Assembly: GCF_963921235.1 (NCBI RefSeq)
Contig: NC_086107.1
Location: 99,450,001-99,510,000 of the forward strand
DNA length: 60,000 nucleotides
Direction of reading: 5' to 3'
Source of the DNA: Mobula hypostoma
Lineage: Eukaryota
A model generated the notes under the pieces. It did not search any database. It saw nothing but the letters and a program-made list of their open reading frames with translations, and had not been told where the DNA came from. A program made the translations under genes and the position numbers. Of the stretch, positions 6,731 to 59,179 are shown piece after piece; the stretch's first letter is position 1; the number at the start of each line of letters is the position of its first letter.

Positions 6731-6819
6731 ATAGATTAATAGAGTTGACAGAAGAGTGTGCACAGTTATTAGATCATATACCACATGGTTAATCTGCTTG
6801 CTATTTTGAAATTCTGCAC

Positions 6820-9410: not shown

Positions 9411-9491
9411 CAGGGGCGCCCAACCTGGGGTTTCACGGACCCCTCGGTTAACAGGAGAAGTCCAAGGCATAAATAAGGTTGGGAACCCCTG
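9411..9491. mobile_element. 81-bp hAT (Charlie-like) MITE
   Basis: CAGGGG...CCCCTG termini; perfect 8-bp TSD ATCTAGAC. Related copies at 20034-20118 and partial at about 50795-50840. Confidence 0.85.
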
Positions 9492-9764
9492 ATCTAGACC
9501 CTCCGGTCGGGGAAGCATCACCTTGCATCCACCCCGTTAAGTTCGGTAAGAATTCTGTGCAAGAAACTTGCCACGGGGAAAAACTTGAGTAGGAGAATGG
9601 GACATGTTCAGGGGAGGTAAAACCTTGTGCAATAGGCCTGTGTATAAGGGGACATGGCACGTGTGGTGTTTGCATGAAAAAGACAGATTACTTAAAGTAT
9701 GACTGCTATGACAGCAATCATTGCCTGTAACCACTGTGTATTCTGTTTTCCATAAGAAATAAAG

Positions 9765-10245
9765 AACCGTGGAGAGCATTCTGACTGGCTGCATCACCGT
9801 CTAGTACGGGGGTGGGGGGTGTTATTGCACAGGATCGAAGTCAGGTGCAAAGAGTTGTAAACTTAGTTATCTCCATCATGGGCACTGGCCTCCATAGTAT
9901 CCCAGACACCTTCAAGGAACTGTGCCTCAGAAAGGCAGCGTCCCTCATTAAGGATCCCCACTATCCAGGTCGCGCCTTGTTTTCATTACTACCATCAGGA
10001 AGGAGATACAGGAGCCTGAAGGCACACACTCAAATGATTCAGGAACAGCTTCTTCCCCTCTGCCATCAGATTTCTGAATGGACATTGAATCGATGAACAC
10101 TACCTCACTACTTTTTTTAATTTCTATTTCTGCACTACTTAATTTAACTAATTCATTATTTTTCTTTTTATTCATTGTATTGCTGCCATAAAGACAATAA
10201 ATTTCATGACATATGCCAGTGATATTAAACCTGATTCTGATTCAG
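9765..10245 (+). mobile_element. L2/Rex-like LINE 3' fragment
   Basis: CLRKAASLIKDPHYPGRALFSLLPSGRRYRSLK peptide; (CTGATT)n tail. Confidence 0.8.
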
Positions 10246-10589
10246 ATATAATCTTATTGTCAACACTTTGAATAAGGCTGTGGAATATTGAGAGCAGTTT
10301 AATTTTATTTACTTCCTTATTATTTAATTCAGTGATACCGCATGGAGTGGGCCTTTCTGGCCCTTCGAGCCAGAAAACCCCACTAAACCCAACTAATCCT
10401 GACCTAATCACAGGATAATTTACAATGAGCAACTAACCCACCCGGTACGTCCTTGGATTCTGGGAGGAAACTGGAGCCCCCAAGGAAAACCCAAGCATTC
10501 CACAGGGAGGACGTACAGCCTCCTTACAGAATGGTGCCAGAACTGATCTCCAAACTCTGGAACGCCCTGGCCGCTATGTTAACACAGAG

Positions 10590-11120
10590 TCCCTCAGTAA
10601 GAAAGGATGTGCTGGCTTTGGAACGTGTCCAGAGGACGCTTATGAGAATGATCCCGGGAAAGAAGAGGTTAACGTATGAAGAGCGTTGGAAGATCTTGGC
10701 CATGTACACCCTAGAGTTTAGAAGAATATAAGAGAGGATTTCATTGAAACCCATCAGATATGGTAAGGCCCAGATAGTGTAGACGTCAAGAGGGTGTCTC
10801 CTGTAGTGAGGGAGTCTCAGACCGAACGGCACACTCTAAGAATAGAAGACTTTACTTTAGAACAGAGATAAGGAGGAATTTCTTTAGCCAGAAGGTGGTG
10901 AATATGTAGAATTCATTGCCACCGGTGGTTGTGGAGGCCAAGTCACTGGGTATATTTAACGCTGAGCTTGGGAGGTTCTTGATTAGAATGGATGTCGTAG
11001 GCTATGGGGAGAAGGCTAGCAAGTAGGGTTGGGAGGGAAAGTAAAGCAGCAATGATCAAATGACGGAGAAGTCTTGATGGGCTGAATGACCTAATTCTGC
11101 TCCTATGTCTGATGGTCTTG
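10590..11120 (+). mobile_element. CR1 LINE 3' fragment
   Basis: RKDVLALERVQRTLMRMIPG peptide and CR1 3' UTR. Confidence 0.85.
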
Positions 11121-11329
11121 GGTTTAGTTATTCCACAGAGCACGCCCTGCCTGGACCTGCTTCCTCTACTGTTAGGTCTCTGCCTTGTCTGTATCACAGT
11201 TCATCAGGTGGGACAGAAGCAGCACTGTACAGTGCTAAACAGTGCTGCGGAGAGCACTGGAGTGAGTGGTGTCTCAGACCCTCCACTGGACCCTTATGCA
11301 CCTGATTTCCTGTTGTTCAGTCAGAATCA

Positions 11330-11890
11330 CAACACCATAAGACACAGGAGCAGAGTTAGGCCATTCAGCCCATCCAGTCTCTCTGCCAGTCCATCATGGC
11401 TGATCCCAGATCCTACTCAACCCCACACACCCACCTCCGATCAGGAAACGATCAACTTCTGCCTTAGATATACCCACGAACTTGGCCTCCACCGCAGTCT
11501 GTGGCAGAGCATCCCACAGATTTACTACTCTCTGGCTAAATAAATTCTTCCTTACCTCTATTCTAAAGGGTCGCCCCCTCAGTTTTGAGGCTGTGCCCTC
11601 TAATCTGGATACCCCCTCCATGGGAAACATCCTCTCCACATCCACCCTATCCAGTCCTTTCAACATTCAGTAGGTTTCAATGAGATCCCCCCACATTCTT
11701 CTAAATTCCAGTGAGTACAGACCCAAAGCTGCCAAACGCTCCTCATATGTTAACCCCTTCAATCCCGGAATCATCCTCGTGAACCTCCTCTGGACTCTCT
11801 CCAATGACAACACATCCTTTCTGAGATACGGGGCCCAAAACTATTGACGATACTCCAAGTGTGGCCTGACTAGAGTCTTACAAAGGCTCA
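11330..11890 (-). mobile_element. CR1 LINE 3' fragment (inverted relative to the 10590 copy)
   Basis: MLKGLDRVDVERMFP...FSQRVVNLWDALP peptide. Confidence 0.85.
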
Positions 11891-12136
11891 GCGTTATTAA
11901 CATGAGTGGATGCAATGTAAAAAAAACCACAGGCAGGATGTTTCCAGCGGAATGGCAGATCTCAAAGCGGCCGAACCAGGGGGGCAGAGACTAGCTCGGT
12001 CCGTCCCAGGGCGCCTACTTGTGCTTGCACCATCCTGAAGGTGGGAGAGAGCCAAGAGGGCCTATTCACTCCCCGGGGAACGGTGTGGGGTGTCAGGACA
12101 CAAACGCCAGAGCAACCCGAAAGGACAAAGTCATAC

Positions 12137-12218
12137 CGTTTTCACATTGTTTCCATTGGTGACCTGGATCAGGAAATCGGGAACCCTGTCTTCATTGAAG
12201 AAGCCGGCCACAGGAGCA
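12137..12218 (-). CDS. FAM234B: FAM234B coding exon 9 (not in the supplied ORF track)
   Basis: Manual translation DAPVAGFFNEDRVPDFLIQVTNGNNVKT. Acceptor TTCCTTCCAG|T, donor ACG|GTATGA. 82 nt, phase 2 to 0. Confidence 0.92.
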
Positions 12219-13064
12219 CTGGAAGGAAAATGATTCCAAGTTACCCAATGGGAGTGAAGAGCACGACCCCAGGCTCTGTGTCACAGAAGCGGCAAGCAAA
12301 CACCATTAGAAAGACTCTAATCAATGGTCATAGCCGTTCAATGGCATTACAATCGCAGTATGCCCCACCATTACAAATCTGCAGGTCACCACTGGCCACA
12401 AAGACAACTGGGCCAGTCAAATAAATACCGTGAGCTCAGGAACCTTTGGAGTCTGGTGCAGCACGAAGGGTGCTGGAAGCGAGGGACGCCAGAGGGTAGG
12501 TTGCTGGGTGTGACTGGTGGGACAGAGTGAAGGGGGAATGAGAGGGTAGACGGGGAAGGGGATAAGGGGGACCAAGGAAACGGGGGAAATAGGCAAGAGG
12601 GTGAAAGGGAGTGACTGGCATGATAGAGGAGTAAGGGGAAAAGACCAGGGGCTGGGAGAAACGAGCAGGGTGGCAGATGGGTAAGTGAGTGGAGAGGTGG
12701 GGACCAGAGAGCCGGGGAGGGAGGGGGAGAACGGGGAATGATTTTTGCAGTCAGGAGTGAGAGTGGTTTGTCTGTGGACGCACTGAGGAGAAGGGGGAGA
12801 GAACAGATGGCCGTGAGGGGTGGGTGGATGGAGTAAATGTGGAGTGGGGTGTGTGGGAAGGAGGGAATGGCGGGCATTGCCCAGAGGCAGAGAAGTAGGT
12901 GGTTGGAGGGAATGTCAGGGATAGAAGGGCAAAGTTTGAATGGGACTGTATTAGCTGAGAGGGGGGCAGGGAGGAAAAGGTTTGCCAACGCAAGGATAGG
13001 AGGTTGTGTGGCCGGCTGAGGGGCCAGTCTCCGCTCACCGACGGACTTCTGGCCAGTTACTCAC

Positions 13065-13214
13065 TCCTTGATACTGCTGCTGACTGTCTGCCACAGGTGC
13101 TGAAGGTGCCTCCCCCTCAGGATTTGCAGCCTGTTCCTCGTGGTAATCAGCAAGGCACTGAAGTTCTTTTCCGGCCCGTCCAGCGTCTGCAGGTCTTGAA
13201 CGGAGCTGTTGCCA
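13065..13214 (-). CDS. FAM234B: FAM234B coding exon 8 (not in the supplied ORF track)
   Basis: Manual translation SGNSSVQDLQTLDGPEKNFSALLITTRNRLQILRGRHLQHLWQTVSSSIK. Acceptor CCCCTCTCAG|T, donor GGA|GTGAGT. 150 nt, phase 2 to 2. Confidence 0.92.
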
Positions 13215-13489
13215 CTGAGAGGGGAAGCAACGTTATCATGTCACAAACAACTGGTTCTCTCTCTCTCTCTCTCTCTCACATACACACACAGAGTCACACA
13301 CACACACACACAGTCACACAGGATAGAAACAGGATAATCCTTCAGTCTGCCATGTTCTTGCTGACCATTAAATACCTTTCTGTACTGACCCCATTTATCA
13401 CCACTGGGTCTAAAGCCTGTAATGCCTTGACAATTCCATTGCACATCCTGCTGCTTCTTAAATTTGTGAGAGTCGCTGCCTCCACCATC

Positions 13490-13800
13490 CCACTCTATTT
13501 TTACAACACTACAAAAGCCTATTCACACAAAAATACAGAAAATACAATTAAGTATTTACAAGACAGTGAACAAATTCACATTAAAATATGATTATTACTG
13601 TCTACAAAACAGCCAATTCCCTGGGAGGCCCACCATTCCACGGTGACCGGACACTCCCTCTTCAAGGACACATGGGCACAAACATATCCCTGGAAGAGGG
13701 GCAGGCAGTCGGCACGGGCCGCGCCCTCGACTACCTGCCGCCTTGGCCCGTGAATGGCCACCGTGGCCTGGTCCAGGAGCAGGACCCACCAGCAGATTCC
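13490..13800 (-). mobile_element. Tx1-like LINE 3' fragment
   Basis: Peptide VAIHGPRRQVVEGAARADCLPLFQGYVCAHVSLKRE resembles a Tx1 ORF2 C-terminus. Confidence 0.6.
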
Positions 13801-16800
13801 CCCAAGTGACCCTTCAGGCTGTGTGGTCCGGATCGCCACCATCCTCTGGGTGAAATAATTCTTCCTTTCATCTCTATGAAATCTCTTACTCCTTACTTGA
13901 AACCGATGTTCACAAATACTTCTGACACATGATGCAGCATCCTGCCATCTACCACGTCTACACTCCTCATAATTCAGTATAACTAGCAGGTCCACCCTCA
14001 GCCTCTCCTGCTCCAACCCATTCTCCTAAGAAATTAACCGTTCCATCCCTGAAACATTCTAGTGAACCTCCTTCGACCAACATATTCAATGGCCCGGCTA
14101 AACTCATCCTCTCATTGAATCCTCTTTCAATTCCACTCGTTTTCTTTGGATCAGAGACATGTCTACAGGAACTCACCGGGTCCACCCTAAGCCTGTCCCT
14201 TCATGGGATACATGGAATAACCATTGTTTCTCGCCGTCTCAGATCCCCACCCTCACCTTTCTTTCCCATACCTAAAGGGTGCTGTTTCCTGCATCCTTGC
14301 AGAATTTAAAAAGGTCACGACTTTTGCTGCCAACTTCTATCCTACTCTCACTTTCACGTGGTCCATATCGAACTCTTCCTTCTGTTATTTCAGGAGGCAG
14401 CCTGGTGTCCAATTTAATTACAAGCCTATAGACTCCCACTGCTAACTGGATTACGCCTCCTTCTACCCTGCAACAGAGCAGACTTCACTGTATTGGTTTT
14501 GGTCCTCCAGCCCCATCGCTTGTTACATTTTCTGTGCCGGTGGTCACAAAGTTACACAGAACAGAAACAGGCCCTTTGGCCCAGCTTGGCAGAGGCAGCA
14601 TGCGGGAACCTCATGCCGAGAAGGCTGAGAGCTGATGTTCGACTCCATTTCACTGACTAAAGCAGCAAGGGAGATTGAAACACGGCTTCCTGCCTTTCTA
14701 TTGCTGGGGGTTCACTCTGCTGCCAGAGAGGGGAGACTGCCTCTTTAAATTGCTGGTGAGATCGCTCTGCTACAGAGAGGGGAGACCGCCTTTTGTCGCT
14801 GGTGCAATCACTCTGCTACAAACAGGAAGAATGTTGCCCAGTTTTCCGCGTTTTGGATGTGGAGATTTTTAAAGTCATATGGTTTTATTTTGTATTCTGT
14901 GTTTTTCGCCATATCTTTCTTGGGTTTTTTTGTGTGCAGGGAAGAGGGATTTAGAGGTTAAATGCCTGTTCCATTTTTGTTCTTTTTTTTGTGCAGGGAG
15001 GAGATATTTAGGGGTTGTTCTTTTCTTTCTTGGTTTTGTGGCTATCTGGAGAAGAATTTCAGAGTTGCATACTTTGATAATAAATGAACCTTTTGTGCCT
15101 TTGAGTTCACCATGCTGATCAAGATGTCAACCTGAGTTATACTTCATTGTCGCCAAACAATTGATACTAGGACGTACAATCATCACAGTGATATCTGATT
15201 CTGCGCTTTCCTCTCCTTGATCACAAGAAATTTTTACAATCTCTCCTCTCAAGTTAGTCCCACTTGCCTGTGTTTGGTTTACATCCCTCCATCTGTACAC
15301 TGTTAAAACTCCTTTTACGTGTCGACATGTCTTCCTTTTACCCAAACCGTGGCTTTCCCTCAGCCGCAGGTGCAGGGTTTTCAGCGACATCCATTCCATT
15401 TCTCACACCCACTTCTTCCCACTCAGAGCCATGATAAGTTTCCCCCTTGCCCTCACTCACTGTCAGTCTTCACAATGAACAGACAATTGGCATCGTTCAC
15501 CACCCTCTCTCTGCCGATGCCTTCAACTGTGTCCAATTTCTCTCCGTCTCCGGTAATACCAACATTCCCTTCTCTGCAACTTAAAACATGTCCATTTTTG
15601 TTAAATTCTCTCAGTTCTGTTGAAAGATCATCAGATTTAAAAGTTCGCTCTGCCTTCACCAATGTTGCTTCATGTCCCGAACTTTTCCTTCATTTCAGAC
15701 TTCCAGCTATCGCTTTACCAGACACTGCATCGCCTATAACCAGAGAGTGAGAGAATAAAACTCCCTCTGAATTGACTGTGGACTGAAGAGGAAAGCAGAA
15801 CTGGCTGCTGAGGTACAAATTTGGCTGCAGGATCTGCAACACAGGTAGCGGGGGTAGGTGCGGAAGATCAGGCAAAGGGAACAAATTGTAATTTATTGCC
15901 ACCGACAAACACACCCATGAAAATTAGCTTTTTCCAGCAGTACTATATATGTACTGTGGTTCAACCCAGTTACAACTGATGCGAAGGCAGAAGCATTTCC
16001 GGTCTTACTGATAAGTGTTTGGGCAATATATATTAATTAAACTTAATTTTTTTGTAGTAAATTATATTTGTAGCGGTTAGCGTAAAGCTATTGCAGCACC
16101 AGCTGTAAGGTTGGGGCTCACTTCCCACTGCAGTCCGTCAGGAGTTTGCACATTCTCCCCGGGTTCTCCGATTTCCTCCCACATTCCAAAAAGATGTCCG
16201 GGTTAGGGTTAGTGAGTTGTGGGCATGCTAAGTTGGCACCAGAAGCATGGCGACTCCTGCAGGCTGCTCAGCACAATCCTCGCTGATTTAATTTGATGCA
16301 AAACGATGCATTTCACTGTATGCTTCAATGCTCATGTGACAAATAAAGCTGATCTTTCTTTCCCTTTAATTCCTTTGTGGAGCTTTGAACTAGCTATCAG
16401 TGACCAGCAGGGGGCAGTGTTGTCCAGGGCTCCAGCTCACACCTGCCAAAATATATATGGGGCAGAACGCACGCTCAGAACATTTGGAGGGTTGTGACGG
16501 CCACAGGTTTAGCCAGGGGAATTGGTGAAATTACCCCAGGGTCCACTACTCAAGTGAGAATACAGGCTGGCGGACGGGCAGTAACAAATTCAGCAGCCAA
16601 TTCCTGGATTACCTCAGGAATTAGTTAGGTTACTCCAGGGTTGAATTACACTTGAACGGAGATGAAGAGGAATTTCTTTAGCCAGAATGTGGTGAACCTG
16701 TGGAATTTGTGGCCACAGGCAGCTGTGGAGGCCAGAACATTAGGTCTATTTACGGTGAATGTCGACAGGTTCTTGATTAGTCAGGGCATGAAAGGATACG

Positions 16801-18295: not shown

Positions 18296-18600
18296 CAGGA
18301 TGGTCCATTCCACACTGTATCTCAATATGGTGCACCCGACTTCAGGGAGCAGTTACGTTAAAACACGGACATCAGGATGGTCCATTCCACACTGTATCTC
18401 AATATGGTGCACCCGACTTCAGGGAGCAGTTACGTTAAAACACGGACATCAGGATGGTCCATTCCACACCGTATCTCAATATGGTGCACCTGACTTCAGG
18501 CAGCAGTTACGTTAAAACACGGACATCAGGATGGTCCATTCCACACCGTATCTCAATATGGTGCACCCGACTTCAGGGAGCAGTTACGTTAAAACACGGA
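18296..18600. repeat. 77-bp tandem repeat, 4 near-identical copies
   Basis: CAGGATGGTCCATTCC starts at 18296, 18373, 18450 and 18527. Confidence 0.95.
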
Positions 18601-18983
18601 GAACGGGAGCAGGTGGAGGCTCCTTCCTTTGATTCGATCATTTATATTCAGTATCCTGTTTTACTTTACTCCCCAATCCTTTGAAGTCTTCAAGCATTGA
18701 TATTATATTTAACTCCTGGAACATATTAAACAATGTGTCCTTGTTACATGTTTCAGGTTAAGATAGGGGGAGAGGGGATTACAATGTCAGGAACCAGACT
18801 GACTGTCATTGAGCATCTGTTGGGTGCAATGCGGGAAGGAAGATGGTACTGAAGAGAGGAGCTGCCTCTGTACTGACAGAGAACGGCTGGTCGATCGTGA
18901 ACGCAGCCATGATTCAGCCTGGCCTACTGGCCTGAGTGTGCTGTATATTCCATGCCAGGTATACCTCGCCTCCCACAGGCCGG

Positions 18984-21200: not shown

Positions 21201-21921
21201 TACAAGGAGTGATTGATTGAGTTCGTGACCTAAGGTAGAGGGAGTCAATTTTAGAAAACCTAGCACATTTATTTTTCAACATAGTCCCCTCCTACATGTA
21301 CACACTTAGTCCAGCGGTCGTGGAGCATACGGATCCCTTCTTTGTAGAAGTGGTCCACAGCAGGCAACACACATCAAAGTTGCTGGTGAACACAGCAGGC
21401 CAGGCAGCATCTCCAGGAAGAGGTACAGTCGACGTTTTGGGCCGAGGCCCTTCGTCAGGACTAACTGAAAGGAGAGCCACAGCAGGGGTGATTAATAAGT
21501 TCGTGGCCTAAGATGAGTTACTAACTTCAAACTTTCCGCATTATCACTCAAAGAGTTGAGCTGCACGTGCATGTAACAAGAGCGTCTTGGACCTCCAGGT
21601 GGTCCACAGCAGGGGTGATTGATAAGTTCGTGGCCTAAGGTAGAAGGCGATGAGTTACACAGCTCTCGTTACATGCACGTGCAGTTCAACTCTTTGAGTG
21701 ATAATGCAGAAAGTTTGAAGTTTCTCCTCATCTCCTTCAGGCTACTCACTTATCAATCACCCCCGCTGTGGACCACTTTCTGGAGGTCCAAGGCGCCGAC
21801 TTCTACAAAGAAGGGATCTGTATGCTCCATGACTGCTAGACTAAGTGTGTAAATGTAGGAAAAATAAATGTGCTAGGTTTTCTAAAATTGACACCTGCTA
21901 ACTTAGACCACGAACTTATCC
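21201..21921. mobile_element. Mariner-like MITE with long inverted arms and internal TIR copies
   Basis: About 21215-21350 is reverse-complementary to about 21798-21921. Inner inverted pair at about 21520-21583 and 21662-21722. TIR-like GGGGTGATTGATAAGTTCGTGGCCTAAG recurs internally. Confidence 0.75.
21365..21476 (-). mobile_element. Short Penelope-derived insertion inside the MITE
   Basis: 10-bp direct repeat CCACAGCAGG at 21355-21364 and 21477-21486. Contains the family motif CTGACGAAGGGCCTCGGCCC on the minus strand. Confidence 0.75.
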
Positions 21922-38069: not shown

Positions 38070-38255
38070 GCAACACGCACAAAATGCTGGAGGAACTCAG
38101 CAGGCCAGGCAGCATCTAGGAAAAGAGTAAGCAGTCGACGTTTTGGGCCGAAACCCAAAGACCTGCCGAAGGGTTTTGGCCCAGAACGTCGATTATACTG
38201 CCTTCCTAAATGCTGCCTGGCCTGCTGAGTTCCTCCAGCATTTTGCGTGTGTTGC
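38070..38255. mobile_element. Palindromic Penelope-end element (second copy)
   Basis: About 90-bp arms, near-perfectly reverse-complementary. Confidence 0.8.
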
Positions 38256-40844: not shown

Positions 40845-41665
40845 TTTTTCTCCCCCACTCCACTTTTCGTAGGGGTACTCTCTATGTGACTCCTTTGTCC
40901 ACGTCCCTCCCCACTGATCTCCCTCCTGGGACTTAGCCCTGTAAATGGGGCAAATGCTACATGTGCCCCTACCCTTACCACCATTTCAGGGCCAGTCTAT
41001 CCAGGTGAGGTGACACGTCACCTGAAAGTCATCTATTGTATCCTGCGCTCCACGTGCGGCCTCTTCCATATCAACGAGACCTGATGTACACTGGGGAACT
41101 GCTTTGTTGAGCACTTTCACTCCGTCTGCCACTAAAGGCGGGATTTCCCGGTGGCCACCCATTTTAACTCTACTTCCCATTCTGACATGTCGGTCCATGG
41201 CCTCCTCTACTACCACAATGAGGCCAATTTTAGGTCGGAGGAGTAACATCATGTTCCGTCTGCATAACTTCCAACCTAATGGCATGAACATCACTTTCAC
41301 TAACTTCTGTTCTGTTCTCTCCCCTCTCCCTTCTCTCTTTTTCCATTCCCCATTCTGGTTCCCCTCTCACTCCTTCTCTTCTCCTCACCTGCCCTTTGGT
41401 GCCCCCCTCTCCTTCCCTTTCACTTACCACTTGCTCTCCTCTTCTGTCAGATTCCTTCCTCAGCCCTTCCACCCATCACCTCCCAGCTTCTCACAATATC
41501 TCCCCTCCCCGTCACTTGTTCCACCCGTTATGTGCCTCCTTCCCCTCTCTCCACTTCTTATTCTGGTCCCCCCCCCCCTTTCCTTTCCAGTCCTGATGAA
41601 GGGTTTTGGCCCGAGACATCGACTGTTTAATCATTTCCACAGATGCTGTCTGACCTGTTGAGCTC
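40845..41665 (+). mobile_element. Penelope-like element 3' fragment (GIY-YIG endonuclease remnant and 3' region)
   Basis: Degraded IQVR*HVT...IYCILRSTCGLFHINET...LGNCFVEHFHSV region, pyrimidine-rich tract, then CAGTCCTGATGAAGGG motif. Confidence 0.75.
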
Positions 41666-44264: not shown

Positions 44265-44735
44265 AACACGAGAAAGTCTGCAGATACTGGAAATCCAAAG
44301 CAATACACACAAAATGCAGGAGGAACTCAGCAGGTCAGGCAGCATCTCTGGAAATGAATAAACAGTCCACCTTTCAGGCCGAGACCCTTCCTCAGGACTG
44401 AGAGGGAAAGGGGTAGATGCCTGAATTGAAAGGTGGTGGGGAGGGGAAGGAGGCAGCTGGAAGGTAATAGATGGAGCCGGGGGTGTGGGAAAGGTTAAGG
44501 GCTGGAGAAGAATCTGATAGGAGAGGAGAAGAGGGGACCCGGGGGAAGTGATAGGCAGATGAGAAGAGGTCAAAGGTTGGAGTGGGGAATAGAGGAAGGG
44601 AGGGAATTTTTTTTACTGGAAAAAGAAATCTATATTTGTACCATCAGGTTGGAGGCTACCCAAACAGAATACAAGGTGCTGCTCCTCCATCCTGAGGGTG
44701 GCCTCATCTTGGCACAAGAGGAGCCCATGGACTGA
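44265..44735 (-). mobile_element. Penelope-like element 3' fragment
   Basis: Minus-strand peptide EATLRMEEQHLVFCLGSLQPDGTNIDF and the same terminal motif. Confidence 0.75.
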
Positions 44736-45580
44736 TGGAATATAAAGTGTTGCTTCTCCACCCAGAGAGTATACTGTTGCTGAAGTTGCACTAACAAAGT
44801 TGGTAATTATCGCAGCTATTGCCATGCAACTTGCAATGACACATTTCGTTCTGCAAAGTACAAATTAGGAAAAGAAGTAGGGCACTGAGCCCTTGAGCTC
44901 ACTCCGTCATTCAACAAGATCAGATGCTGGCTGACACAATTGCAATGTTAACTCAGCATTCCTGTTTATTCCCAGCAATATTTCACCCCTTGCTCCTCAG
45001 GCTTCTGCCTACCGCAGCCTGCCTTATACAAGAGGGAAAGAGTTTTCTTTGCAGATGGTGTATGGTACTAAAAAGTACATGATGCAGAGCATTCCACTTG
45101 TAACAGACCCTTGCTGCTTTCTCATTGGAGATGCTGGACACCGAGCCACAGGCAGGGTCAATAAGCAGCAGGACATACTATCACTTGCTCCTTCTCTCTA
45201 CCTTAACAGCTGGTTCATGAGCCGGGTGACAAAAAGAGGGCATGGGTTGCACTCTCATAACATCTCCACCAACGCATACGCTCACCCACTGGAAAGTGAT
45301 CAGAGCGTGCAGAACTAATCATTAAAATGTTTGGTGCTTTTATTTGTCCTCCAATGGTGATTCCCTGCCCTTTGGAGCATGTGTGGTTTCTACCCAGCAT
45401 CGGCACCCCCTCACCCTGGCACTTCAGAGGTCAGTCACTTGACCCTGGAGGGATTGCCAGCTCTTACACCCCCGTTCTGCAACACAACATGTGAAGATCA
45501 TGAGGTGTGTCACTCCTTCTCCATCACACTAGTATGTAAACATGGCTACCACTACATTCCAACTTCTCAGTATTGCTTAC

Positions 45581-45991
45581 CGGCTGCTTGTCCAAGGCTC
45601 TTGTTCCACGAAGTCTTCAAGGCGTGCCTCTTCGGACATGGGATAAAGAAAGCACAAACTAAGACTAGGACCATGGTCAAAATAAGAGTGAGGAGGAAGG
45701 CAGATGTCCGCAGGCAAGGAAGAAATGAAGTTCTGGTTTTTGTAGTAAACTCATCTGACACTTCAGTTGCATGTACCTCCACTGAGCTGGGCTGATCTGA
45801 CCGGCATTGTTTTACCTTTAACGAGTGCATCTCAACCACTGTGTCTGCGTCTCTGTTGAGCACAGCCTCAATGGTCGCCTCAGTCTGCAGACTGCCATTT
45901 TTCTGATAGTTGACGTCACCTTCGTCCGCACTGTCATCACTGTCAGCCTGCCGCAGCGGGTCATACTCTCCTAGATCATGGGACTTTTTAC
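45581..45991 (-). CDS. FAM234B: FAM234B coding exon 2 (cytoplasmic N-terminus and transmembrane helix)
   Basis: Acceptor TTTTCCAG|GT. Encodes KKSHDLGEYDPLRQADSD...RTSAFLLTLILTMVLVLVCAFFIPCP...GQAA. Donor CCG|GTAAGC. 411 nt, phase 1 to 1. Confidence 0.95.
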
Positions 45992-46609
45992 CTGGAAAAC
46001 ATTAGATTGAAGAAAGTGACGTTTTAGTCTCAGGTACATAGTCATCACACATTAACATGATTTCCATTCTTTGCACGATCTCAGCCCAATCATTAGTCAC
46101 AAAGAGACAGGGATGAGAAAGTAGGGGAATAAGGCAGGAGAGGTGTAGAGGGTAAGGGAGGTGGGAGAGGGAGGAGATTGAGGATGAGGACAGGAGGGAT
46201 AAGAAAGAGAGGGAAAGGGCACAACAGAGAGAAGGAGATTGTGAAATGGGAAGAGGGAGGAGAAGAAGGGAGGTTGGGGGTAAGGAAGAAGGGCAATAGT
46301 GGGAGGGAGGGGTACGTGGTGGCAGATAATCTGGAGTGGGAACGAAGCAGCGGTGAGGGGAAGAAGAGATAGTAGAGATTGAGAGAGAGTCAGAGAAGGG
46401 TAGTTGGTAAGTGGGAGGGAGGGAGGGAGGGAGGGAGGAAAGGAGTGTGGTGTGGAAGACAGAGAAATCGTGGGGGATGAGGTTTGTGGATGTGAGGAGC
46501 AGGACATACAAGGATCGGAGGATGGGGCGGAGCCCATGAAGGACAATGGAGGGGCTAAATGGACGCGTCATTGGTGGAAGGCTCCATTCTCCGGACCCCA
46601 GCCACTTAC

Positions 46610-48670: not shown

Positions 48671-49054
48671 ATCATCATCATCATTATCATGTGCCATGTT
48701 GTATGATGTAGGCATTCGGGGCTTTCCATAACCGCGATTGTCCTCGGTACAGTTTTCTACAGAAGTGGTTTGCCATTGCCGCCTTCTGGGCAGTGTCTTT
48801 ACTAGACAGGTGACCCCAGCCATTATTGATATTCTTCACAGATTGTCTGCCTGGTGTCAGTGGTCACATAACCAGGACTTGTGATGTGCACCAGCTCCTT
48901 GTACGACCATCCACCACCTGCCCCTGGCTTCACGTGACCCTGATCGGGGGGCTAAGCAGGTGCCACACCTCACCCAAGGGTGACCTGCAGGCTAGCGGAG
49001 GGAAGGCACTCCTTGCGTCTCCTTTGGTAGAGACGTATCTCCACCCCACCACCC
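48671..49054 (-). mobile_element. RTE-related non-autonomous element (copy upstream of the first DDX59 coding exon)
   Basis: Reverse complement of the 22957 and 51177 copies; (ATC)n at its left end. Confidence 0.75.
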
Positions 49055-49501: not shown

Positions 49502-50197
49502 ATGATGTTTGTGCCCAGGTCTCTGAAGGTGAAGAGGGCTGAGGAAAGCAATGAGCAAGCAACCAAGAGGAGCAAGACCCTGGCTGGCGACTCCGAACCC
49601 GGCGATGGCCAGCTGGCCCAGAGCTGCGCGGCTGAAGGGGGAGGAGGGCAGCCAGGAGCCGGGGAAAGTGGCGACGAGGAGCCGGTGAAGGCCCTCAGCC
49701 AAAGCCAGCGCTGGCCGGAGCCTGGGGAGCCGGCTTGCTCCATGTGCGGCCGCTATGGGGAGTACATCTGCGATGAGACAGACACTGACGTGTGCAGCCT
49801 GGAGTGCAAGGCCAAGCACCTGCAGCAGATCACAGGTGCGGGACGCCCTCAAGACGCAGAGGAGTCCAGCCGGGAGGAAGTGATCCCGGACGGCCAGTAC
49901 CGGGAGCACCCCTTTATCTCCAGCCTGTCAGATGAGCAGGTGGAAACCCTGCAGCAGCAGCTGGGGATCACTGTGCAGGGCCCCACCCTCAGGCCCATCG
50001 TGGAGTTCGAGCACTGTGGCTTCCCCGACACCCTGAGTGCCAACCTGCACAGGCTGGGCTACCACAGCCCCACCCCGGTGCAGATGCAGATGCTGCCACA
50101 GGGCCTGGCTGGGAAGGACGTGCTAGCGGCGGCTGACACCGGCTCAGGGAAGACTGCGGCCTTCCTACTCCCGGTGATCATGGCAGCACTGAGGGAG
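49502..50197 (+). CDS. DDX59: DDX59 first coding exon (zf-HIT domain, Q motif, motif I)
   Basis: [12 protein letters not shown] start; HIT zinc finger [29 protein letters not shown] motif GYHSPTPVQ; Walker A ADTGSGKT. Candidate acceptors before 49453 or 49474; donor GAG|GTAGGC. 232 codons. Confidence 0.95.
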
Positions 50198-51176
50198 GTA
50201 GGCAGCAAGGCCAGAAGGTGGACAGGGCTATGGCCAATCAAATGAGGCTCAGAGAATGATGGGTAGAGCAGTGTGTCCAGTGGGGTATAAGCTGAATAAT
50301 GAAGCTGGGGCCAGAAAGGGGTGTGGCAAAGCTGGTGGGTGGGGCTAGGTTGCATTGGGGCGGGGGCAGAAGGTGATGGGCAGGGCCAGATAATGGGTGG
50401 CCTATGGTCATTGATGTGAGGACACAACATGATAAAGCATGGCAGTGACCAGTGGGGTGGGCTGAAAGATGATGATTAGGCTGTGTGGGCAATGGCTGTG
50501 GTCATTAAGAAATGGGTAGGATTGTGTGGCATTCTGGTTGCAGTGGCAATTGGTTGGGGGATCAAGAACGAAAAGGATATAGATTTAATCTGAGAGGGGA
50601 GAGATTTAGTAGAAACCTGAAGGACAGGTTTTTCACCCAGAGGGCAGTTGGTTTGTGGAAGTAACTGACAGAGGGAATGATTAACTACTTTTAAAAGGTT
50701 CATAGATAGTAAAGGTTTAGAGGGAATTGGGCCAAACATGGGCGAATGGAGCCAGCTTACATGGGAATGTTAGTCAGTGTGGCTACGCTACCATGCACGG
50801 ACCCCTCAGTTAATGGCATTAAAAAGGTTGGGAACCCCTGTTCTATGCTTTAATCTGTGAGACAGACATCACAATTTTCATATTCCCCCCAAATGCTTAT
50901 GAAGAGAACTAGCAAGATCATCTGTGCTGTCATGACTGAAATCTGTGCCTAGATTGATGCCGAGTGATCTGTCTGTTTTCTTTTTTGAAGGTCTGAGTGT
51001 AGTACTAGGTTCAGAGGGTATTGTCTGTTTGATTTTTGGCCAAATATTCAGCAGATTTCTTGAAACTAGTGAATCACATTGGTTTTTGAATCAATCCAGT
51101 AGTTTTATTTCTGGTCATATTGTTTATGTAAAAACAAATTTTCTTAAATGAATTTGAATCCCAGAATTGTCTTGTA

Positions 51177-51547
51177 GGGTGGCAGAGTGGAGATACATCT
51201 CTACCAAAGAAGGTATAAGGCGATCCTTCCCTCTGCTAGCCTGCAGATCACCCTTGGGCTAGAGGTAGCACCTGCTTAGCCCCCGATCAGGATCACCTGA
51301 AACCATGGAAGCAGGTGGTGGATGGTCGTATGAGCAGCTGCTGCACATCACAAGTCCTGGTTATGTGACCACTGAAGCCAGGCAGACAATCTCTGAAGGG
51401 TATTGATAATGGCTGGGGTCACCCATCTTGAGTAGGTACTGCCCAGAAGAAGGCAAGGCCAAACCACTTCTGTAGAAAAACTTGCCAAGGGCAATCATGG
51501 CCACAGATGATCACCCACGTCATCGGACATGGCACTTAATGATGATT
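51177..51547 (+). mobile_element. RTE-related non-autonomous element (copy downstream of the first DDX59 coding exon)
   Basis: Same head, body and tail as the 22957 copy. Confidence 0.75.
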
Positions 51548-51998
51548 CCTTAATTCTAATGGATGCTGTCCTTGACCTCTCCAGCAATGCAGTGTTTTAC
51601 CTTGAATCAATATTCCCTCTTCTAGCCTGAAAATCCAGGAGTATTTTGTACCTTACCCAAGTGTGATCTGCAGGCTTGCGGAGGGAAAGAGCACCATACA
51701 CCTCCTTTGGTAGAGATGTATCTTCACCCCACAACCCACGGGAAAAAAACATAAGATGCAATTATATGAATAAAGGGCGAAGACTTGCAACAAAATTATA
51801 GAGATGTGCAAAAGCCATAGAAATGGAAAATTTCAGCTTGGCCAATAATTTTTTTGTATTTCAGAAATAAACTTTATCATAATAAAAATGTGTTAAAAAG
51901 AAGACACAATTAATAGTCATTATCTTCAGTAATGTTAACATAATTTTTAAAACTAAAGCATCATTACCATATGTGGCCCTCTGGGGTGATACACACTT

Positions 51999-52624
51999 GA
52001 TATTTGATGTTGTGGTGCTCGCTGAGCTTGGCAATTAGCTTGTAGATGTTTCGTTACCAATGGAGGTGACATCCTCAGTGCACAGTTGGTGTTTCTCTCT
52101 GGGAGTGCTCACGTTTATATAGGCCCTTGTTCGCTTGCTTCAATCCTGATTGGCTACCCTTCAGTTGACCTTTGAATTCTATTTCATGTTTCCTTGACTT
52201 TTTGGGTTTCGTAAATGGCATCTATTTTGATATGTTTTATTACGGAGTTATCATAACAGAACTGCGCTTCTAAACATTCTTATGCCTGCGTCAGAACCTC
52301 CGCACACAAGAATATTTAAAAGTATGGTTCTCCTCTGATAACTAGGTAAACAAATATTTTGAAATAGACGTTATCTACGAACCCCAAAGAACTAAAGAAA
52401 CGTGAGCCAATAGAATTCAAAGGTCAACTGAAGGGTAGTCAATCAGGACCAAGGCAAGCGAACGGGGGACTATATAAACGCGAACGCTCCCAGAGAGAAA
52501 CAACAACTGCACACTGAGGACATCACCTCGACTGGTGATGAAACGTCTGCAAGCTAATTGCCAAGCTCGACAAACACCGCCACATCGAATGCCTCATCCT
52601 GAGCTACCAATATTTACCACCATC
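51999..52624. mobile_element. Fold-back (inverted-duplicated) Penelope-like element 3' end
   Basis: Left arm (about 52005-52285) is reverse-complementary to right arm (about 52300-52588). Both arms encode degraded Penelope C-terminal-like peptides (QEYLKVWFSSDN*VNKYFEIDVIYEP). 14-bp TSD GGTGATACACACTT at 51985-51998 and 52625-52638. Confidence 0.8.
52508..52551 (+). ncRNA. Minimal hammerhead-ribozyme motif (Penelope-associated)
   Basis: CTGAGGA-C-[ATCACC/TCGACT/GGTGAT]-GAAAC-GTC with short stem I. All core nucleotides present. Activity untested. Confidence 0.6.
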
Positions 52625-53457
52625 GGTGATACACACTTTTAGAGTTGAGGGGGTTCGCCACCAGACTCAACTCCTCTGTGTGCAGTAGCGTAAGGTGCCT
52701 GAACTGCGGAACTCCTTCACGGAGCCCTTGCATTGGTTGTAGCAAACTCAGTGTGTCCTTCAGCATGTACTCCTCCAGCCTGAAATGTGGCAGTCAGCAG
52801 CATTCCCTTATGTACACCTTGCTGTGCTGAACACTAAGTTTTGGGCAGACCAAAGAGTGGCTTTCATCAGGTCGATCTTCCAGCAGCACCTAATGGCTAT
52901 CTCAGTATGTGTCCCTGGGAACAACCTGTAGATTGGAGGGTCAAGTCCCTACAACTGAGTGGAGAGTGGATATAGCCAGTACAAAGAGGAGGAGGGGGGT
53001 ATGAGACAGGGGCTATAAGATTATTGGTTGACCATGGAGGGGTGAATGATGACAGACAGATGGAGCCTGGTTGAAGAGAGGGAGAAGTGGATTTGCAAGA
53101 GAGAGGCTGATGGGTGATAATGGAAGCAGATAAAGAAAGGAACTTCCAATGCAGTCAAGGGAATGTAGGGGGAACCATTAATGCAAGAAATTCTGCAGAT
53201 GCTGAACGTCCAAAGCAATGTACACAAAATGCAGGTCAGGCAGCATCCGTGGAAATGAAAAAGCAGTGGGCATTTTGGGCCAAGACCCTGCTTCAGGACA
53301 GCTGCTGGAGGGTGATGCAAGGACACAAAGGCACTGGTGTTGGGATCTGATACGGGGGGGGGGGGCAGGCGGGGTGAAATAGCAGACCAGACTGGAGGAC
53401 TGAGTAGTCTACTTCTGTTCCTTGTTTGTAAATGAGAATTATTTTCCTTCATTTCAG

Positions 53458-53637
53458 AAGAAAGATTCTCTGCAGCAGCCTGTGGGGTTGATATTGACTC
53501 CAACACGTGAGCTTGCCATTCAGATTGAGCGTCAGGCCAAGGAGCTGATGATGGGTCTCCCCAACATGAGGACAGCTCTGCTGGTTGGGGGGATGCCCCT
53601 CCCACCTCAGCTCCATCGGCTTCAACAAAACATTAAG
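53458..53637 (+). CDS. DDX59: DDX59 second coding exon (motif Ia, GG doublet)
   Basis: Encodes [60 protein letters not shown]. Acceptor TTTCAG|AAG, donor AAG|GTAAGG. 180 nt, phase 0 to 0. Confidence 0.95.
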
Positions 53638-55584: not shown

Positions 55585-58500
55585 CAATGGATTCTGGTTC
55601 AATGGGATATATTGGAACCGGTACAGTTTGGCCCAATTAACCACCTGCCGCCCCAATTAGCAAAAGTTTCATGGAAATAGTTTAAAAGGTGATTAAAAAG
55701 AAAGACAAACTATCATTTAACTGAGTAGCAATTTATATACTTAAATGAAATACAGAACAAATTAGAACACTACCTTTGCTACTACAGTACTATAGAACTG
55801 TGTATTAGTTCCTAATAGTTATTGACAGAGGAATTCATCCATTGTATCCTATCTTGTTCTTTCGATTGACTGCAAATGAACAGATGCCCAATGCAGATAA
55901 TGGACTGCTTTCATAAAATGCTTCGATGATTGCATCCTCCAAATCTTTATTTTCATTGTAGCATTCAAGCTACCTTCAAATTCTTCATGGTTCATAACTG
56001 CTAAAGTAGTGAAATAGTTTCATTTTTACTCCCGGCTGTTTCTGGCTTCTCCAAACCTTAATGCTTGAAACCGCACTTTCAGATTGGCAAGTATGACGTT
56101 GTGGCCATCTCTGAAACTTGGCTAAAGGATAGTTGCCGTTGGGAGCTGAACGTCCAAGGATATTCGGCGTATCGGAAAGATAGGTTAGTAGTCAGAGGGG
56201 GTGGTGTGGCCCTGTGTATAAGAAATAATATTAGATCATTAGAAAGGGATGACATAGGATCGGAAGGTGTAAAGTCTGTATGGGTTGAATTAAGAAGTGG
56301 CAAGGGAAAAAGGACCCTAATGGCAGTTGTATACAGGCCTCCAAACAGCAGCCGGGATGTGGATTACAAATTACAGCAGGAGATAGAAAACATATGTCAG
56401 AAGGGCAATGTCATGATAATCGTTGGGGATTTTAACATGGAAGTGGATTGGGAAAACCAGGCTAGTACTGGACCTTGAGAGAGAATTTGTAGAATGTCTA
56501 AGGGATGGCTTTTTAGAACAGCTTGTTGTTAAGCCCACTAGGGGATCAGCTGTGCTGGATTGGATGTTGTGCAATGAACCGGAGGTGATAAGAGAGCTTA
56601 AGGTTAAGGAACCTTTGGGGAACAGTGATCACAATACGATCGAGTGCACTTTGAAATTTGAGAAGGAGAAACTAAATTCCAATGTGTCAGCATTTCAGTG
56701 GAATAAAGGAAATTACAATGGCATGAGAGGGGAACTGGCCAAGGTTGACAGGAAAGGGACACTAGCAGGAAGGACAGCAGAGCAACAATGGCCGGAGTTT
56801 CTGCGAAAAATGAGGGAAGTGCAAGACATATGTGTTCCAAATAGGAAGAAATGTTCGAATGGAAGAAGGACACTACCGTGGCAGACGAGTGAAATCAGAG
56901 CCAAAGTAAAAGCAAAAGAGAGGACATACAAGGAAGCCAAAACTAGTGGGAAGATAGAGGATTGGGAGTGCTAAAAAACTTTCAGAATGAAACTAAGAAG
57001 GTCATTAGGAAGGAAAAGATGAATTATGAAAGGAAGTTGGCGACTAATATCAAAGAAGAAAGAAGATACTAAAAACTTTTTAAAGGGTAAAAGAGAGTTG
57101 CGGGTAGATAGAAGACCAATAGAAAATGATGCTGGAGATATTGTAATGAGAGACGCAGAGGAACTAAATGCTAAACTAAATCAGTCTTCACAGTGGAAGA
57201 CATCTGCAGCATACTGGACGTTCAAGAGTGTCAGGGAAGTGAAGTATGTGCAGTGAAAATTACAATTGAGAAGGTGCTCAGGAAGCTTAATGGTCTGAGG
57301 GTAGATAAATCTCCTGGACCTAATGGAATGCACCCTCGGGTTCTGAAAGAAGTAGCTGGAGAGATTGCGGAGGCATTAACAATGATCTTTCAAGAATCGA
57401 TAGATTCTGGCATTGTACTGAATGACTGAAAAATTACAAATGTTACTCCGCTATTTAAGATGGATGGGAGGCAGCAGAAAGGAAATTATAGACCTGTTAG
57501 CCTGACGTCAGTGGTTGGGAAATTGTTGGAATCGATTGTTAGGGATGAAATTACAGAGTACCTGGAGGCACATGACAAGACAGGCCAAAGCCAGCATGGT
57601 TTCCTGAAAGGAAAATCCTGCCTGACTAACCTACTGCAATTTTTTTGAGGAAATTACAAACAGGGTAGACAAAGGAGATGCAGTAGATGTGGTGTACTTG
57701 GATTTCCAGAAGGCCTTTGACAAGGTGCCACACATGAGGCTGCTTAACAAGATAAGAGCCCTTGGAATTACAGGGGAGTTACAAGCATGGGTGGAGCATT
57801 GGCTGATCGGCAGAAAGTGCAGTTGGAATAAAGGGAATCTATTCTGGCTGGCTGCCGGTTACCAGTGGCGTTCCACAGGGGTCGGTGTTGGGACTGCTGC
57901 ATTTTACAATGTATGTCAATGATTTGGACTGTGGGATTAATGGATTTGTGGCTAAATTTGCCGATGATACAAAGATAGGTGGAGGAGCGGTTAGTGTTGA
58001 GGAAACAGAGAGGCTTAGATAGTTTAGGGGAATGGGCAAAGAAATAGCAAATGAAATACAATGTATGGTCATGCACTTGGGTGGAAGAAATAAACAGGCA
58101 GACTATTGTTTAGACGGGGAGAGAATTCAAAATGCAGAGATGCAAAGGGACTTGGAAGTTCTTGTACAAGATACTCTAAAGGTTATCCTCCAGGTTGAGT
58201 CGGTGGTGAAGAAGGCGAATGCAATGTTGGCATTCATTTCTCGAGGTATGGATTATAAGAGCAGGGATGTGATGTTGAGGCTCTATAAGGCACTCGTGAG
58301 ACCACACTTGGAGTATTGTGAGCAGTTTTGGGGTCCTTATTTTAGAAAGGATGTACTGACTTTGGAGAGGGTTCAGAGAAGATTCATGAGAATGATTCCA
58401 GGAATAAAAGGGTTCCCATGTGAGGAACGTCTGGCAACTCCTGGGGTGTGTTCCCTGAAGTTCAGGAGAATGAGGGGGGATCTCACAGAAACATTCCGAA

Positions 58501-59179
58501 TGTTAATAGGCCTGAACAGATTAGATATGGCAAAGTTATTTCACATGGTAGGGGAGTCTAGGACAAGGGGGCATGACTTCAGGATTGAAGGACGTCCATT
58601 TAGAACAGAGATGTGGAGAAATTACTTTAGTCAGAGGGTAATAAATCTGTGGAATTTGTTGCCATGAGCATCGGTGGAGACCAAGTCATTGGGTGCATTT
58701 AAGACAGAGATAGATAGGTTCTTGATTAGCCCGGGCATCAAAAGGTATGGGAAGAAGGCAGGGGGAGTGGGGATGACTGGAAGAATTGGATCAGCCCATG
58801 ATTGAATGGCAAAGCAGACTTGGTGGGCCGAATGGCCTATTTCTGCTCGTATATCTTATGGTCTTAATTCCGTTCTGAATTGTCTTTGTTTATTTCTCAC
58901 CAACTATCTTTGACAAAAATCACTGCTTTTTGAACACAAACACATGCAACTGATGCTATTTAAAAACAGTGTGGTGTCTAATGGCCACACAGCTCTGCAC
59001 TACTAACACTAGTTAGAAACTGTTTGGCAATAGTCTCCTATCCCAATTAAGTGACATGGTGCCCCAAATAAACATAGGGAGTCCTAGCTATTTTCTCAAT
59101 TAGTTTTTGTTCTTTAGAAGTTGTACCAAATAAGCAGTTGCCCTGATTAACCGATGGCCCAGTTAACTGGAATCCACTG
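55585..59179. mobile_element. Non-autonomous Tc1/mariner-pogo-like DNA transposon split by the CR1 insertion
   Basis: TA-flanked imperfect terminal inverted repeats (TIRs): CAATGGATTCTGGTTCAATGGG (left) and CCCAGTTAACTGGAATCCACTG (right). Confidence 0.7.
56075..58866 (+). mobile_element. CR1-type LINE, 5'-truncated, degraded ORF2 (APE endonuclease and reverse transcriptase)
   Basis: ORF pieces YDVVAISETWL, VYRPPNS, VGDFN, SDHNTI, NYRPVSLTSVVGKLLE, YLDFQKAFDKVPH, LVRPHLEYC. Frameshifts and stops present. 3' tail ATCTTATGGTCTTA. Confidence 0.93.

What the first reader, a model, noticed from the sequence alone, without database searches (positions are those of the whole stretch)
51985..52638. 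Fold-back Penelope element in a DDX59 intron carrying a core-intact minimal hammerhead ribozyme
Seen: the plus strand (DDX59 sense) at 52514-52547 reads CUGAGGA, one extra nucleotide, a perfect 6-bp stem II (AUCACC/GGUGAU), GAAAC and then GUC directly. The left arm carries a more degraded copy on the minus strand (52041-52082). A 14-bp TSD brackets the unit. Known: Penelope-like retroelements carry minimal type I hammerheads whose helix III is reduced to a short palindrome (here ACGU) and is thought to form through dimerisation; an extra base between A9 and 10.1 is tolerated in some viroid hammerheads. Inference: the DDX59 pre-mRNA contains a potential self-cleavage site after 52547, but it also contains that site's own antisense arm, so a roughly 280-bp hairpin could sequester it.
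Basis: partly seen in the sequence, partly recalled or inferred. Interest (0 to 1): 0.72.

Follow-up and report, generated by a model that had tools for sequence, protein, structure and literature searches.

The report
Decayed Penelope fold-back insertion in intron
This is an old, truncated, hairpin-shaped copy of a Penelope-like jumping gene inside a DDX59 intron; its self-cutting RNA motif is a known kind and is probably silenced by its own mirror copy, and the only surprise is how closely the family resembles elements of liver flukes.

Summary
In detail: 14-bp TSD, two inverted arms of about 288 nt (80% alike), a one-sided 34-nt tail and a core-intact minimal hammerhead at 52514-52547, in a DDX59 intron. 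Each arm reads endonuclease C-terminus, stop, pLTR, hammerhead, ORF start, matching both ends of one full-length RT-GIY-YIG protein: a Penelope-like element (PLE) in the published inverted, 5'-truncated form. The family has many copies and the insertion is shared with at least one other species. Cleavage of DDX59 pre-mRNA is unlikely. This copy has lost the family's G10.1, its AUG (the 'extra' base is the U of the start codon) and one of three stem I pairs. It has no same-strand partner for dimerisation. Its antisense arm is transcribed first and abolishes stem II in folding models (P 1.0 to 0.0). The scan noted similar fold-back PLE insertions elsewhere in this genome. One lead is new to my searches: the hammerhead/ORF start is 42 of 49 nt identical to a published Clonorchis PLE hammerhead, and 21 of 22 named protein hits that I looked up are opisthorchiid flukes, hinting at parasite-fish horizontal transfer (unproven; short, doubly constrained sequence).

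The parts
51985..51998 (.). Left target-site duplication (14 bp)
   Evidence: exact direct repeat with 52625-52638
52002..52288 (-). Left arm: inverted 5'-truncated PLE copy without the tail
   Evidence: 79.6% identical to right arm; family contigs continue with tail sequence beyond 52003 where this arm stops (table 7)
52184..52291 (-). C-terminal end of the GIY-YIG endonuclease and stop codon, left arm
   Evidence: translation; tblastn to P0011 residues 788-824, 41% identity
52045..52078 (-). Left hammerhead copy, degraded (stem II mismatch, G16.2 to A, stem I broken); keeps the start codon at 52072-52070
52289..52302 (.). Turn of the fold-back (junction of the two truncated copies)
   Evidence: spanned by one contig of organism B with 6 differences in 270 (table 8)
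52303..52590 (+). Right arm: 5'-truncated PLE copy
52301..52405 (+). C-terminal end of the GIY-YIG endonuclease and stop codon, right arm (one premature stop inside)
   Evidence: translation; tblastn to P0011 residues 785-817, 45% identity, E 8e-8 within the element
52406..52513 (+). Non-coding pseudo-LTR with a TATA-like word at 52471-52478 and a decayed CCAAT-like word at 52439
   Evidence: promoter function is inferred, not tested
52512..52549 (+). Minimal type I hammerhead motif: core 52514-52547, stem II 52522-52527/52534-52539, 2-bp stem I 52512-52513/52548-52549, predicted cut after 52547
   Evidence: family letters
52520..52624 (+). First 35 codons of the PLE ORF (start codon lost in this arm)
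   Evidence: matches residues 3-35 of P0011 and 3-43 of P0012; 43 hits at E<=0.001
52591..52624 (+). One-sided 34-nt tail
   Evidence: absent from left arm; family contigs break off at 52586 (61 contigs) and 52624 (47 contigs) in run X1 (table 7)
52625..52638 (.). Right target-site duplication (14 bp)
49505..50197 (+). DDX59 coding exon upstream of the host intron (start approximate)
   Evidence: zf-HIT and DEAD 1-38; DDX59 best hit; donor site
53458..53637 (+). DDX59 coding exon downstream of the host intron
   Evidence: DEAD 41-97; splice sites

Best explanation
An old, dead insertion of an endonuclease-bearing Penelope-like retroelement (Penelope/Poseidon-type, closest to fluke elements). 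Reverse transcription began inside the RNA about 35 codons into the ORF, ran back through hammerhead and pLTR and stopped about 35 codons into the end of the preceding ORF. A second, inverted cDNA began at the nearer start site (hence no tail) and stopped at about the same point. Both were joined into one staggered cut, giving the 14-bp TSD. The hammerhead is a passenger of the pLTR. In DDX59 pre-mRNA the antisense arm is made first and the right arm zips onto it from the turn outwards, so the hammerhead never folds; it is also weakened by private mutations and has no same-strand partner. It does not cut DDX59 pre-mRNA to any meaningful extent. Shown: anatomy, protein matches, family letters, shared insertion, folding model. 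Inferred: insertion mechanism (from published PLE work), co-transcriptional zipping, lack of cleavage.
For: Permuted ORF end-pLTR-ORF start order matching both ends of P0011, an 824-aa RT plus GIY-YIG protein. Family ends pile at 52586 and 52624, 38 nt apart, like the two RT start sites that bound the tail in the anole element; inverted truncated copy plus one-sided 30-40 bp tail is the published layout. Family reads U at 52521 (6676 of 7222 summed depth) and G at 52522 (6302 of 7222) in run X1, with the same majority in X5 and X15; family stem I has a third pair (loose-end consensus at 52085 in three DNA runs). In 31 of 33 listed family-majority rows the other arm carries the family letter, so the arms decayed independently from one template (only 40 of 219 rows were shown). 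Stem II pairing probability 0.997-1.0 without the left arm and 0.0 with it; in-register stem I at most 0.004 even alone; 88% of core bases pair with the left arm. Only the two arms match the element in the window. Published minimal hammerheads do not cleave as monomers, cleave weakly as dimers or need the element's protein.
Against: No cleavage was measured. A10.1 is not fatal by rule: 3 of 56 representative PLE hammerheads have A there and several have 2-bp stem I (supplement Fig. S3). All catalytic core bases of the right copy are intact. A transcript started from the right arm's own pLTR would lack the antisense arm and keep stem II. The TSD is 14 of 14 identical although the arms are 80% alike, expected with probability 0.04-0.12. 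Folding models are equilibrium models and ignore proteins and helicases. No contig shown covers the orthologous hammerhead core in the other species, so conservation there is untested.
Confidence: 0.85

Rival explanations
1. The right-arm hammerhead still cleaves in some setting: in short transcripts started from its own pLTR (no antisense arm), dimerising in trans with other family RNAs or helped by a PLE protein, or in DDX59 pre-mRNA after the hairpin is unwound.
For: Intact core and stable stem II in isolation; TATA-like word upstream; protein-assisted cleavage shown for the anole element.
Against: Loss of G10.1 and of one stem I pair; an off-register stem I is preferred, P about 0.8; a two-copy fold is only about 4.5 kcal/mol better than two monomers and does not form the dimer helix III; no reads ended at the cut site even for the active anole element.
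Confidence: 0.07
2. The long hairpin, not the ribozyme, matters: a 265-pair intronic duplex that is edited by ADAR or alters DDX59 splicing and has been kept for that.
For: 265 pairs in the MFE, z -33; insertion shared with organism B and apparently C.
Against: Arm differences are mostly transitions (46 of 58), 21 of CpG type, with no sign of compensation; the element lies 1.8 kb from the donor and 0.8 kb from the acceptor; retention over 1-7% host divergence is expected for neutral intron DNA.
Confidence: 0.07
3. The two-armed unit is itself an amplifying non-autonomous element with diverged arms (MITE-like PLE derivative), which would explain a perfect TSD beside 80% arms.
For: TSD 14 of 14 against probability 0.04-0.12.
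Against: Summed depth at the turn is 80-158 against 9295-15663 over the hammerhead and 16-18 on the left flank (run X1); arm differences are private, 31 of 33; the only listed contig across the turn is the orthologue of organism B.
Confidence: 0.04
4. On origin, compatible with the best explanation: the family entered the fish lineage by horizontal transfer from, or shares a recent donor with, parasitic flatworms.
For: 42 of 49 nt identical (44 of 49 with the family letters at 52521-52522) to Clonorchis sinensis(1) in Fig. S3, counted by eye; the 11 vertebrate rows of that figure have different stems. Of 43 hits, 26 were looked up: 21 opisthorchiid, 1 cestode, 4 unnamed, 0 vertebrate. ORF start is 23 of 35 identical to a Clonorchis type, within the 22-26 of 35 among opisthorchiid types and above Dicrocoelium versus Clonorchis, 20 of 35. 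Fluke fragments stop at the same tail end.
Against: The segment is short and doubly constrained (ribozyme and codons). Fluke gene sets are rich in unmasked repeat fragments while vertebrate sets mask repeats, so the hit list is biased. 17 hits were not looked up; the two best by identity (24-25 of 35) are unnamed. The endonuclease end is only 40-48% identical to flatworm proteins. No RT of the fish family was available, so no tree.
Confidence: 0.4
5. The hammerhead-like motif is a chance match.
For: Rfam found no hammerhead; the loose motif is not above shuffles.
Against: [quoted passage not shown]
Confidence: 0.01

Closest known systems
Minimal type I hammerheads of metazoan PLEs, in particular Clonorchis sinensis (1) and (2) (Cervera and De la Pena 2014, PMC4209133, Fig. 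S3; C. sinensis entry typed 'Cercyon, partial' in Table S1)
   Same: Core, extra base after A9, 6-bp stem II with 6-nt loop, no loop III, palindromic 15.2-16.2, short stem I; 42 of 49 nt identical; opposite-strand pairs 100-700 bp apart are described there.
   Different: Host is a vertebrate; this copy has A10.1 and a 2-bp stem I; no chondrichthyan row in that figure.
PAc, Poseidon element of Anolis carolinensis (Frangieh et al. 2024, PMC11167929)
   Same: ORF starts at the start of stem II; tail bounded by two internal RT start sites; hammerhead at the pLTR-ORF junction.
   Different: PAc is full length and active in vitro; this is a 626-nt dead fragment of another family; PAc sequence was not compared here.
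Inverted 5'-truncated PLE insertions with a one-sided 30-40 bp tail (Craig et al. 2021, PMC8557442, Fig. 2 legend)
   Same: Inverted truncated copy at the 5' end, tail at one end only.
   Different: Here both copies are very short, so the whole insertion is one hairpin.
Full-length RT-GIY-YIG ORF of Dicrocoelium dendriticum (P0011) and unnamed P0012
   Same: Match both the ORF start and the endonuclease end; no Neptune/Nematis linker zinc finger.
   Different: 45-54% identity only; the fish family's own RT was not seen.
Ultraconserved intronic hammerheads of amniotes (as summarised in PMC6765202)
   Same: Hammerhead motif on the sense strand of an intron.
   Different: Those are discussed as exapted gene-regulatory ribozymes; this is a minimal, decaying, repeat-borne motif with its own antisense beside it. 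Their canonical helix III and deep conservation are recalled, not checked here.

Membership tests
Endonuclease-bearing Penelope-like elements | Single ORF with RT and C-terminal GIY-YIG endonuclease | tested here: inconclusive
   Only the last 35 and first 35 codons are present; both match one full-length RT-GIY-YIG protein. The RT itself is truncated away.
Endonuclease-bearing Penelope-like elements | pLTR between ORF end and ORF start (permuted partial tandem) | tested here: met
   ORF end 52301-52405, non-coding 52406-52513, ORF start 52520-52624
Endonuclease-bearing Penelope-like elements | Inverted 5'-truncated copy and one-sided 30-40 bp tail | tested here: met
   34-nt tail; family ends at 52586 and 52624
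Endonuclease-bearing Penelope-like elements | Dispersed multi-copy family, insertion bounded by a TSD | tested here: met
   2919 contigs laid in X1, summed depth up to 15663 against 16-18 on the left flank (not a copy number); TSD
Penelope/Poseidon clade versus Neptune/Nematis | Absence of the CX2-5CxxC linker zinc finger between RT and endonuclease | tested here: inconclusive
   Absent in 6 of 6 full-length relatives checked; the fish family's own linker is not in the window
PLE minimal hammerhead (min-HHR) | CUGANGA, GAAA and NUH core | tested here: met
   right copy
PLE minimal hammerhead (min-HHR) | Extra base between 9 and 10.1; palindromic 15.2-16.2 | tested here: met
   52521; ACGU at 52543-52546; trait list
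PLE minimal hammerhead (min-HHR) | G10.1 (usually paired with C11.1) | tested here: not met
   This copy has A10.1-U11.1; the family has G10.1 with mostly U11.1. 51 of 56 published representatives have G10.1. Met by the family, not by this copy.
PLE minimal hammerhead (min-HHR) | Stem I of about 3 or more pairs closing the core | tested here: not met
   2 pairs in register, probability 0.004; family has 3
PLE minimal hammerhead (min-HHR) | Self-cleavage as a dimer or with protein help | not testable with these tools
   needs an assay
Rfam hammerhead families | Covariance-model match | tested here: not met
   no hit at gathering score or at E<=10
Exapted intronic ribozyme | Core conserved across species beyond the neutral rate | tested here: inconclusive
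   orthologous contigs shown for organisms B and C do not cover the core; intact core expected in about 25% of copies at 10% decay

The most novel reading that the evidence does not exclude
The fish family descends from a Penelope-like element transferred horizontally between parasitic flatworms and cartilaginous fish long ago (before the split of organisms A, B and C), a PLE host-parasite transfer that my literature searches did not find described.
Probability: 0.4. Interest if true: 0.5.

Novelty: new member of a known kind. Interest (0 to 1): 0.27.

Why it matters
As a locus it matters little: it is one decayed copy of a known kind of element, and similar fold-backs were noted elsewhere in this genome. 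It does illustrate a general point: in head-to-head PLE insertions each hammerhead is preceded by its own antisense on either strand, so read-through host transcripts are protected from cleavage, which may let such insertions persist in introns. If the fluke link survives an RT tree, it would add a parasite-to-vertebrate transfer for a retroelement class where, in the papers I read, transfer is documented to conifers and suggested for Naiads. Had the copy cleaved DDX59 pre-mRNA, it would have been a new route from transposon ribozyme to gene control, but the evidence is against that.

Tried and rejected
No whole genome was held, so copies could not be counted or aligned directly. Rfam gave no hammerhead; the MIR6217 match (E 2e-6, far below gathering score) reflects the long hairpin. 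My first idea that A10.1-U11.1 came from two CpG decays of G-C was wrong: the family has G10.1 with U11.1. My first label 'Neptune' was dropped: relatives lack the linker zinc finger. Two templates for the two arms (suggested for another locus in e1-7808845) was tested and not supported here. A pattern scan of viral contigs found 0; the metagenome scan gave 7 distant RT loci (29-50%) with no usable hammerhead, so no covariation alignment was possible. Pfam did not recognise the two arm translations. RNA: no RNA holder listed; the guessed-RNA run X9 held family contigs but had no cover on the unique flanks, and contigs cannot show ends, so nothing follows about expression or cleavage. A contig of organism C joining 51991 to 52654 with 19 other letters between looks like an uninterrupted paralogue of the flanking repeat and not an empty allele, because another C contig spans the right junction; not resolved. 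Lunse et al. 2017 was not held. Literature searches for a fluke-fish PLE transfer found no paper with all terms; listings showed none by title or abstract start. Repbase and Dfam could not be searched, so the family may already be catalogued. Supplements of the 2026 bioRxiv preprint (one chondrichthyan genome sampled) were not seen and may bear on novelty.

Full report
Observation. The described letters are in place. A 14-bp exact repeat brackets a 626-nt insert. The insert is a fold-back: 52002-52288 pairs with 52303-52590 at 79.6% (227 matches, 58 mismatches, 5 gap columns), and 52591-52624 is a 34-nt tail on the right only. A perfect hammerhead core with stem II occurs once in the window and in 0 of 20 shuffles, whereas the loose motif is not above chance (4 against 0-4). 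Rfam has no hammerhead hit. The host gene is DDX59 on the plus strand: best solved-structure hit is its zinc finger, the flanking exons continue each other in the DEAD model, and the intron runs 50198-53457. The host is called a ray or cartilaginous fish in earlier scan notes; I did not test that.

What it is. Read with stops as X, each arm gives one frame: about 35 codons, a stop shared by both arms, a non-coding stretch, then an ORF start. One full-length RT plus GIY-YIG protein from Dicrocoelium (P0011, 824 aa) matches both parts in permuted order, its residues 785-817 at 52301-52399 and 3-35 at 52526-52624. This is the ORF end-pLTR-ORF start junction of a Penelope-like element. Six of six relatives checked lack the Neptune/Nematis linker zinc finger (criterion from PMC8557442), so Penelope/Poseidon-type is the likelier clade, by proxy. 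An inverted 5'-truncated copy and a one-sided 30-40 bp tail are the published layout. In the anole element the tail lies between two internal RT start sites and the ORF starts at stem II of the hammerhead (PMC11167929). Both recur here: family contigs break off at 52586 and 52624 (61 and 47 contigs in X1; 55 and 49 in X5), the left arm stops near the first site and the right arm at the second, and the left arm keeps a start codon made of A9, the extra U and G10.1.

Family and age. Four runs were laid at 80% likeness (contigs only, 4 of 24 listed runs). In X1, 2919 contigs were laid; summed depth is 9295-15663 over the hammerhead and 16-18 on the left flank. The tool warns that this is no copy number; it shows a family of many copies. 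Organism B has contigs across the left junction (3 differences in 289), the turn (6 in 270) and the right junction (2 in 249). One contig of organism C spans the right junction (15 in 215). The insertion therefore predates the A-B split and probably the A-C split. Of the 40 difference rows shown (179 were not shown), 37 lie in the arms and 33 have a family majority in X1; in 31 of these the other arm carries the family letter, and the other 2 are one column shared by both arms. The arms came from one template and decayed separately, about 10% each. The perfect TSD is mildly unlikely at that age (0.04-0.12).

Is the hammerhead working? Against: the family has U at 52521 (92% of depth) and G at 52522 (87%), so this copy lost both the start codon and G10.1; the family pair is G10.1 with mostly U11.1, so the A-U pair is a one-sided change and not covariation. 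The family has a third stem I pair that both arms lost at the same CpG (loose-end consensus). Alone, 52495-52565 forms stem II (P about 1.0) but in-register stem I only at 0.004, preferring an off-register helix; with the left arm, stem II falls to 0.0 and 88% of core bases pair with the antisense. The antisense arm is transcribed first and the turn is only about 14 nt, so zipping should precede hammerhead folding (inference). No other same-strand family copy lies in the window. Published minimal hammerheads are inactive as monomers and weak as dimers (review passages), or need the element's protein, and no RNA ends were seen at the cut site even for an active element. An intact 13-base core is expected in about 25% of copies at 10% decay. 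For: the core is intact; 3 of 56 published representatives have A10.1 and several have a 2-bp stem I (counted by eye); a transcript from the internal pLTR would escape the antisense. I put meaningful cleavage at under 10%.

The fluke lead. From C3 onward the right arm is 42 of 49 nt identical to the Clonorchis sinensis (1) row of Fig. S3, 44 of 49 with the two family letters (by eye); the 11 vertebrate rows have other stems. The two-arm profile gave 43 hits at E<=0.001 among 1.84 billion proteins; of 26 looked up, 21 are Clonorchis or Opisthorchis, 1 a cestode, 4 unnamed, none vertebrate. The decayed ORF start is 23 of 35 identical to one Clonorchis type, inside the range among opisthorchiid types (22-26 of 35) and above Dicrocoelium versus Clonorchis (20 of 35) (11 hand-picked proteins). 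Among the 120 best of 707 shorter relatives of P0012, all named ones are flatworms, but that query is not the fish element. Against transfer: the segment is short and constrained both as ribozyme and as codons; fluke gene sets include unmasked repeats; the endonuclease end is only 40-48% identical; no RT or tree was possible. I also recall a similar pLTR in snake genomes (memory, untested), which would fit either repeated transfers or an old lineage. Seven literature searches showed no report of such a transfer; subscription papers, Repbase and Dfam were out of reach.

Papers seen. PMC4209133: parts 1-2 of 4 of the text and parts 1-2 of 3 of the supplement. PMC11167929: parts 1-2 of 4. PMC8557442, PMC6765202, PMC544870, PMC6257768 and bioRxiv 10.64898/2026.07.22.740005: passages around search terms only (the two hammerhead-chemistry papers gave no direct number for the G10.1 to A change; that it lowers activity is recalled). 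Lunse et al. 2017: not seen, known only through PMC6765202.

Verdict. Observation confirmed; identity confirmed; regulatory cleavage of DDX59 unlikely. New member of a known kind. The scan has noted similar fold-back PLE insertions in this genome, though no look-alike by sequence and no note naming Clonorchis. Interest 0.27, carried mainly by the unproven fluke link (probability 0.4, interest 0.5 if true).

Noticed in passing
window 41593-41620 (+), 44368-44395 (-), 21431-21458 (-): Three decayed hammerhead-like motifs with a 4-bp stem II, from a different repeat family than the finding; probably the very abundant family of the earlier scan notes.
   Followed up: partly
window 52640-52830: The insertion sits beside or within another repeat (summed depth 958-2943 at 52735-52812); its minus-strand frame resembles the C-terminal end of an L1/Tx1-type ORF2 (recalled resemblance).
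   Followed up: partly
window 51177-51738: A second, imperfect inverted arrangement of a common repeat in the same DDX59 intron (82-nt arms, 83%), with a further inverted copy at 48726-49054 upstream.
   Followed up: no
window 3256-5051, 6181-6731, 18296-18608: Tandem arrays with periods of about 75-80, 31 and 77 nt (self-comparison).
   Followed up: no
window 2453-2644, 38070-38255, 21477-21796: Short palindromic (fold-back) repeats of about 190-300 nt from other families.
   Followed up: no
window 56062-58667 (+): A frameshifted LINE (CR1-like by recalled motifs) endonuclease-RT remnant, likely in a later DDX59 intron.
   Followed up: no
window 45567-46001 (-): An exon-like ORF on the minus strand upstream of DDX59 with a predicted membrane stretch; no Pfam hit.
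   Followed up: partly
window 52301-52624: ORF end, pLTR and ORF start lie in one reading frame in both arms; may be chance (1 in 3).
   Followed up: no
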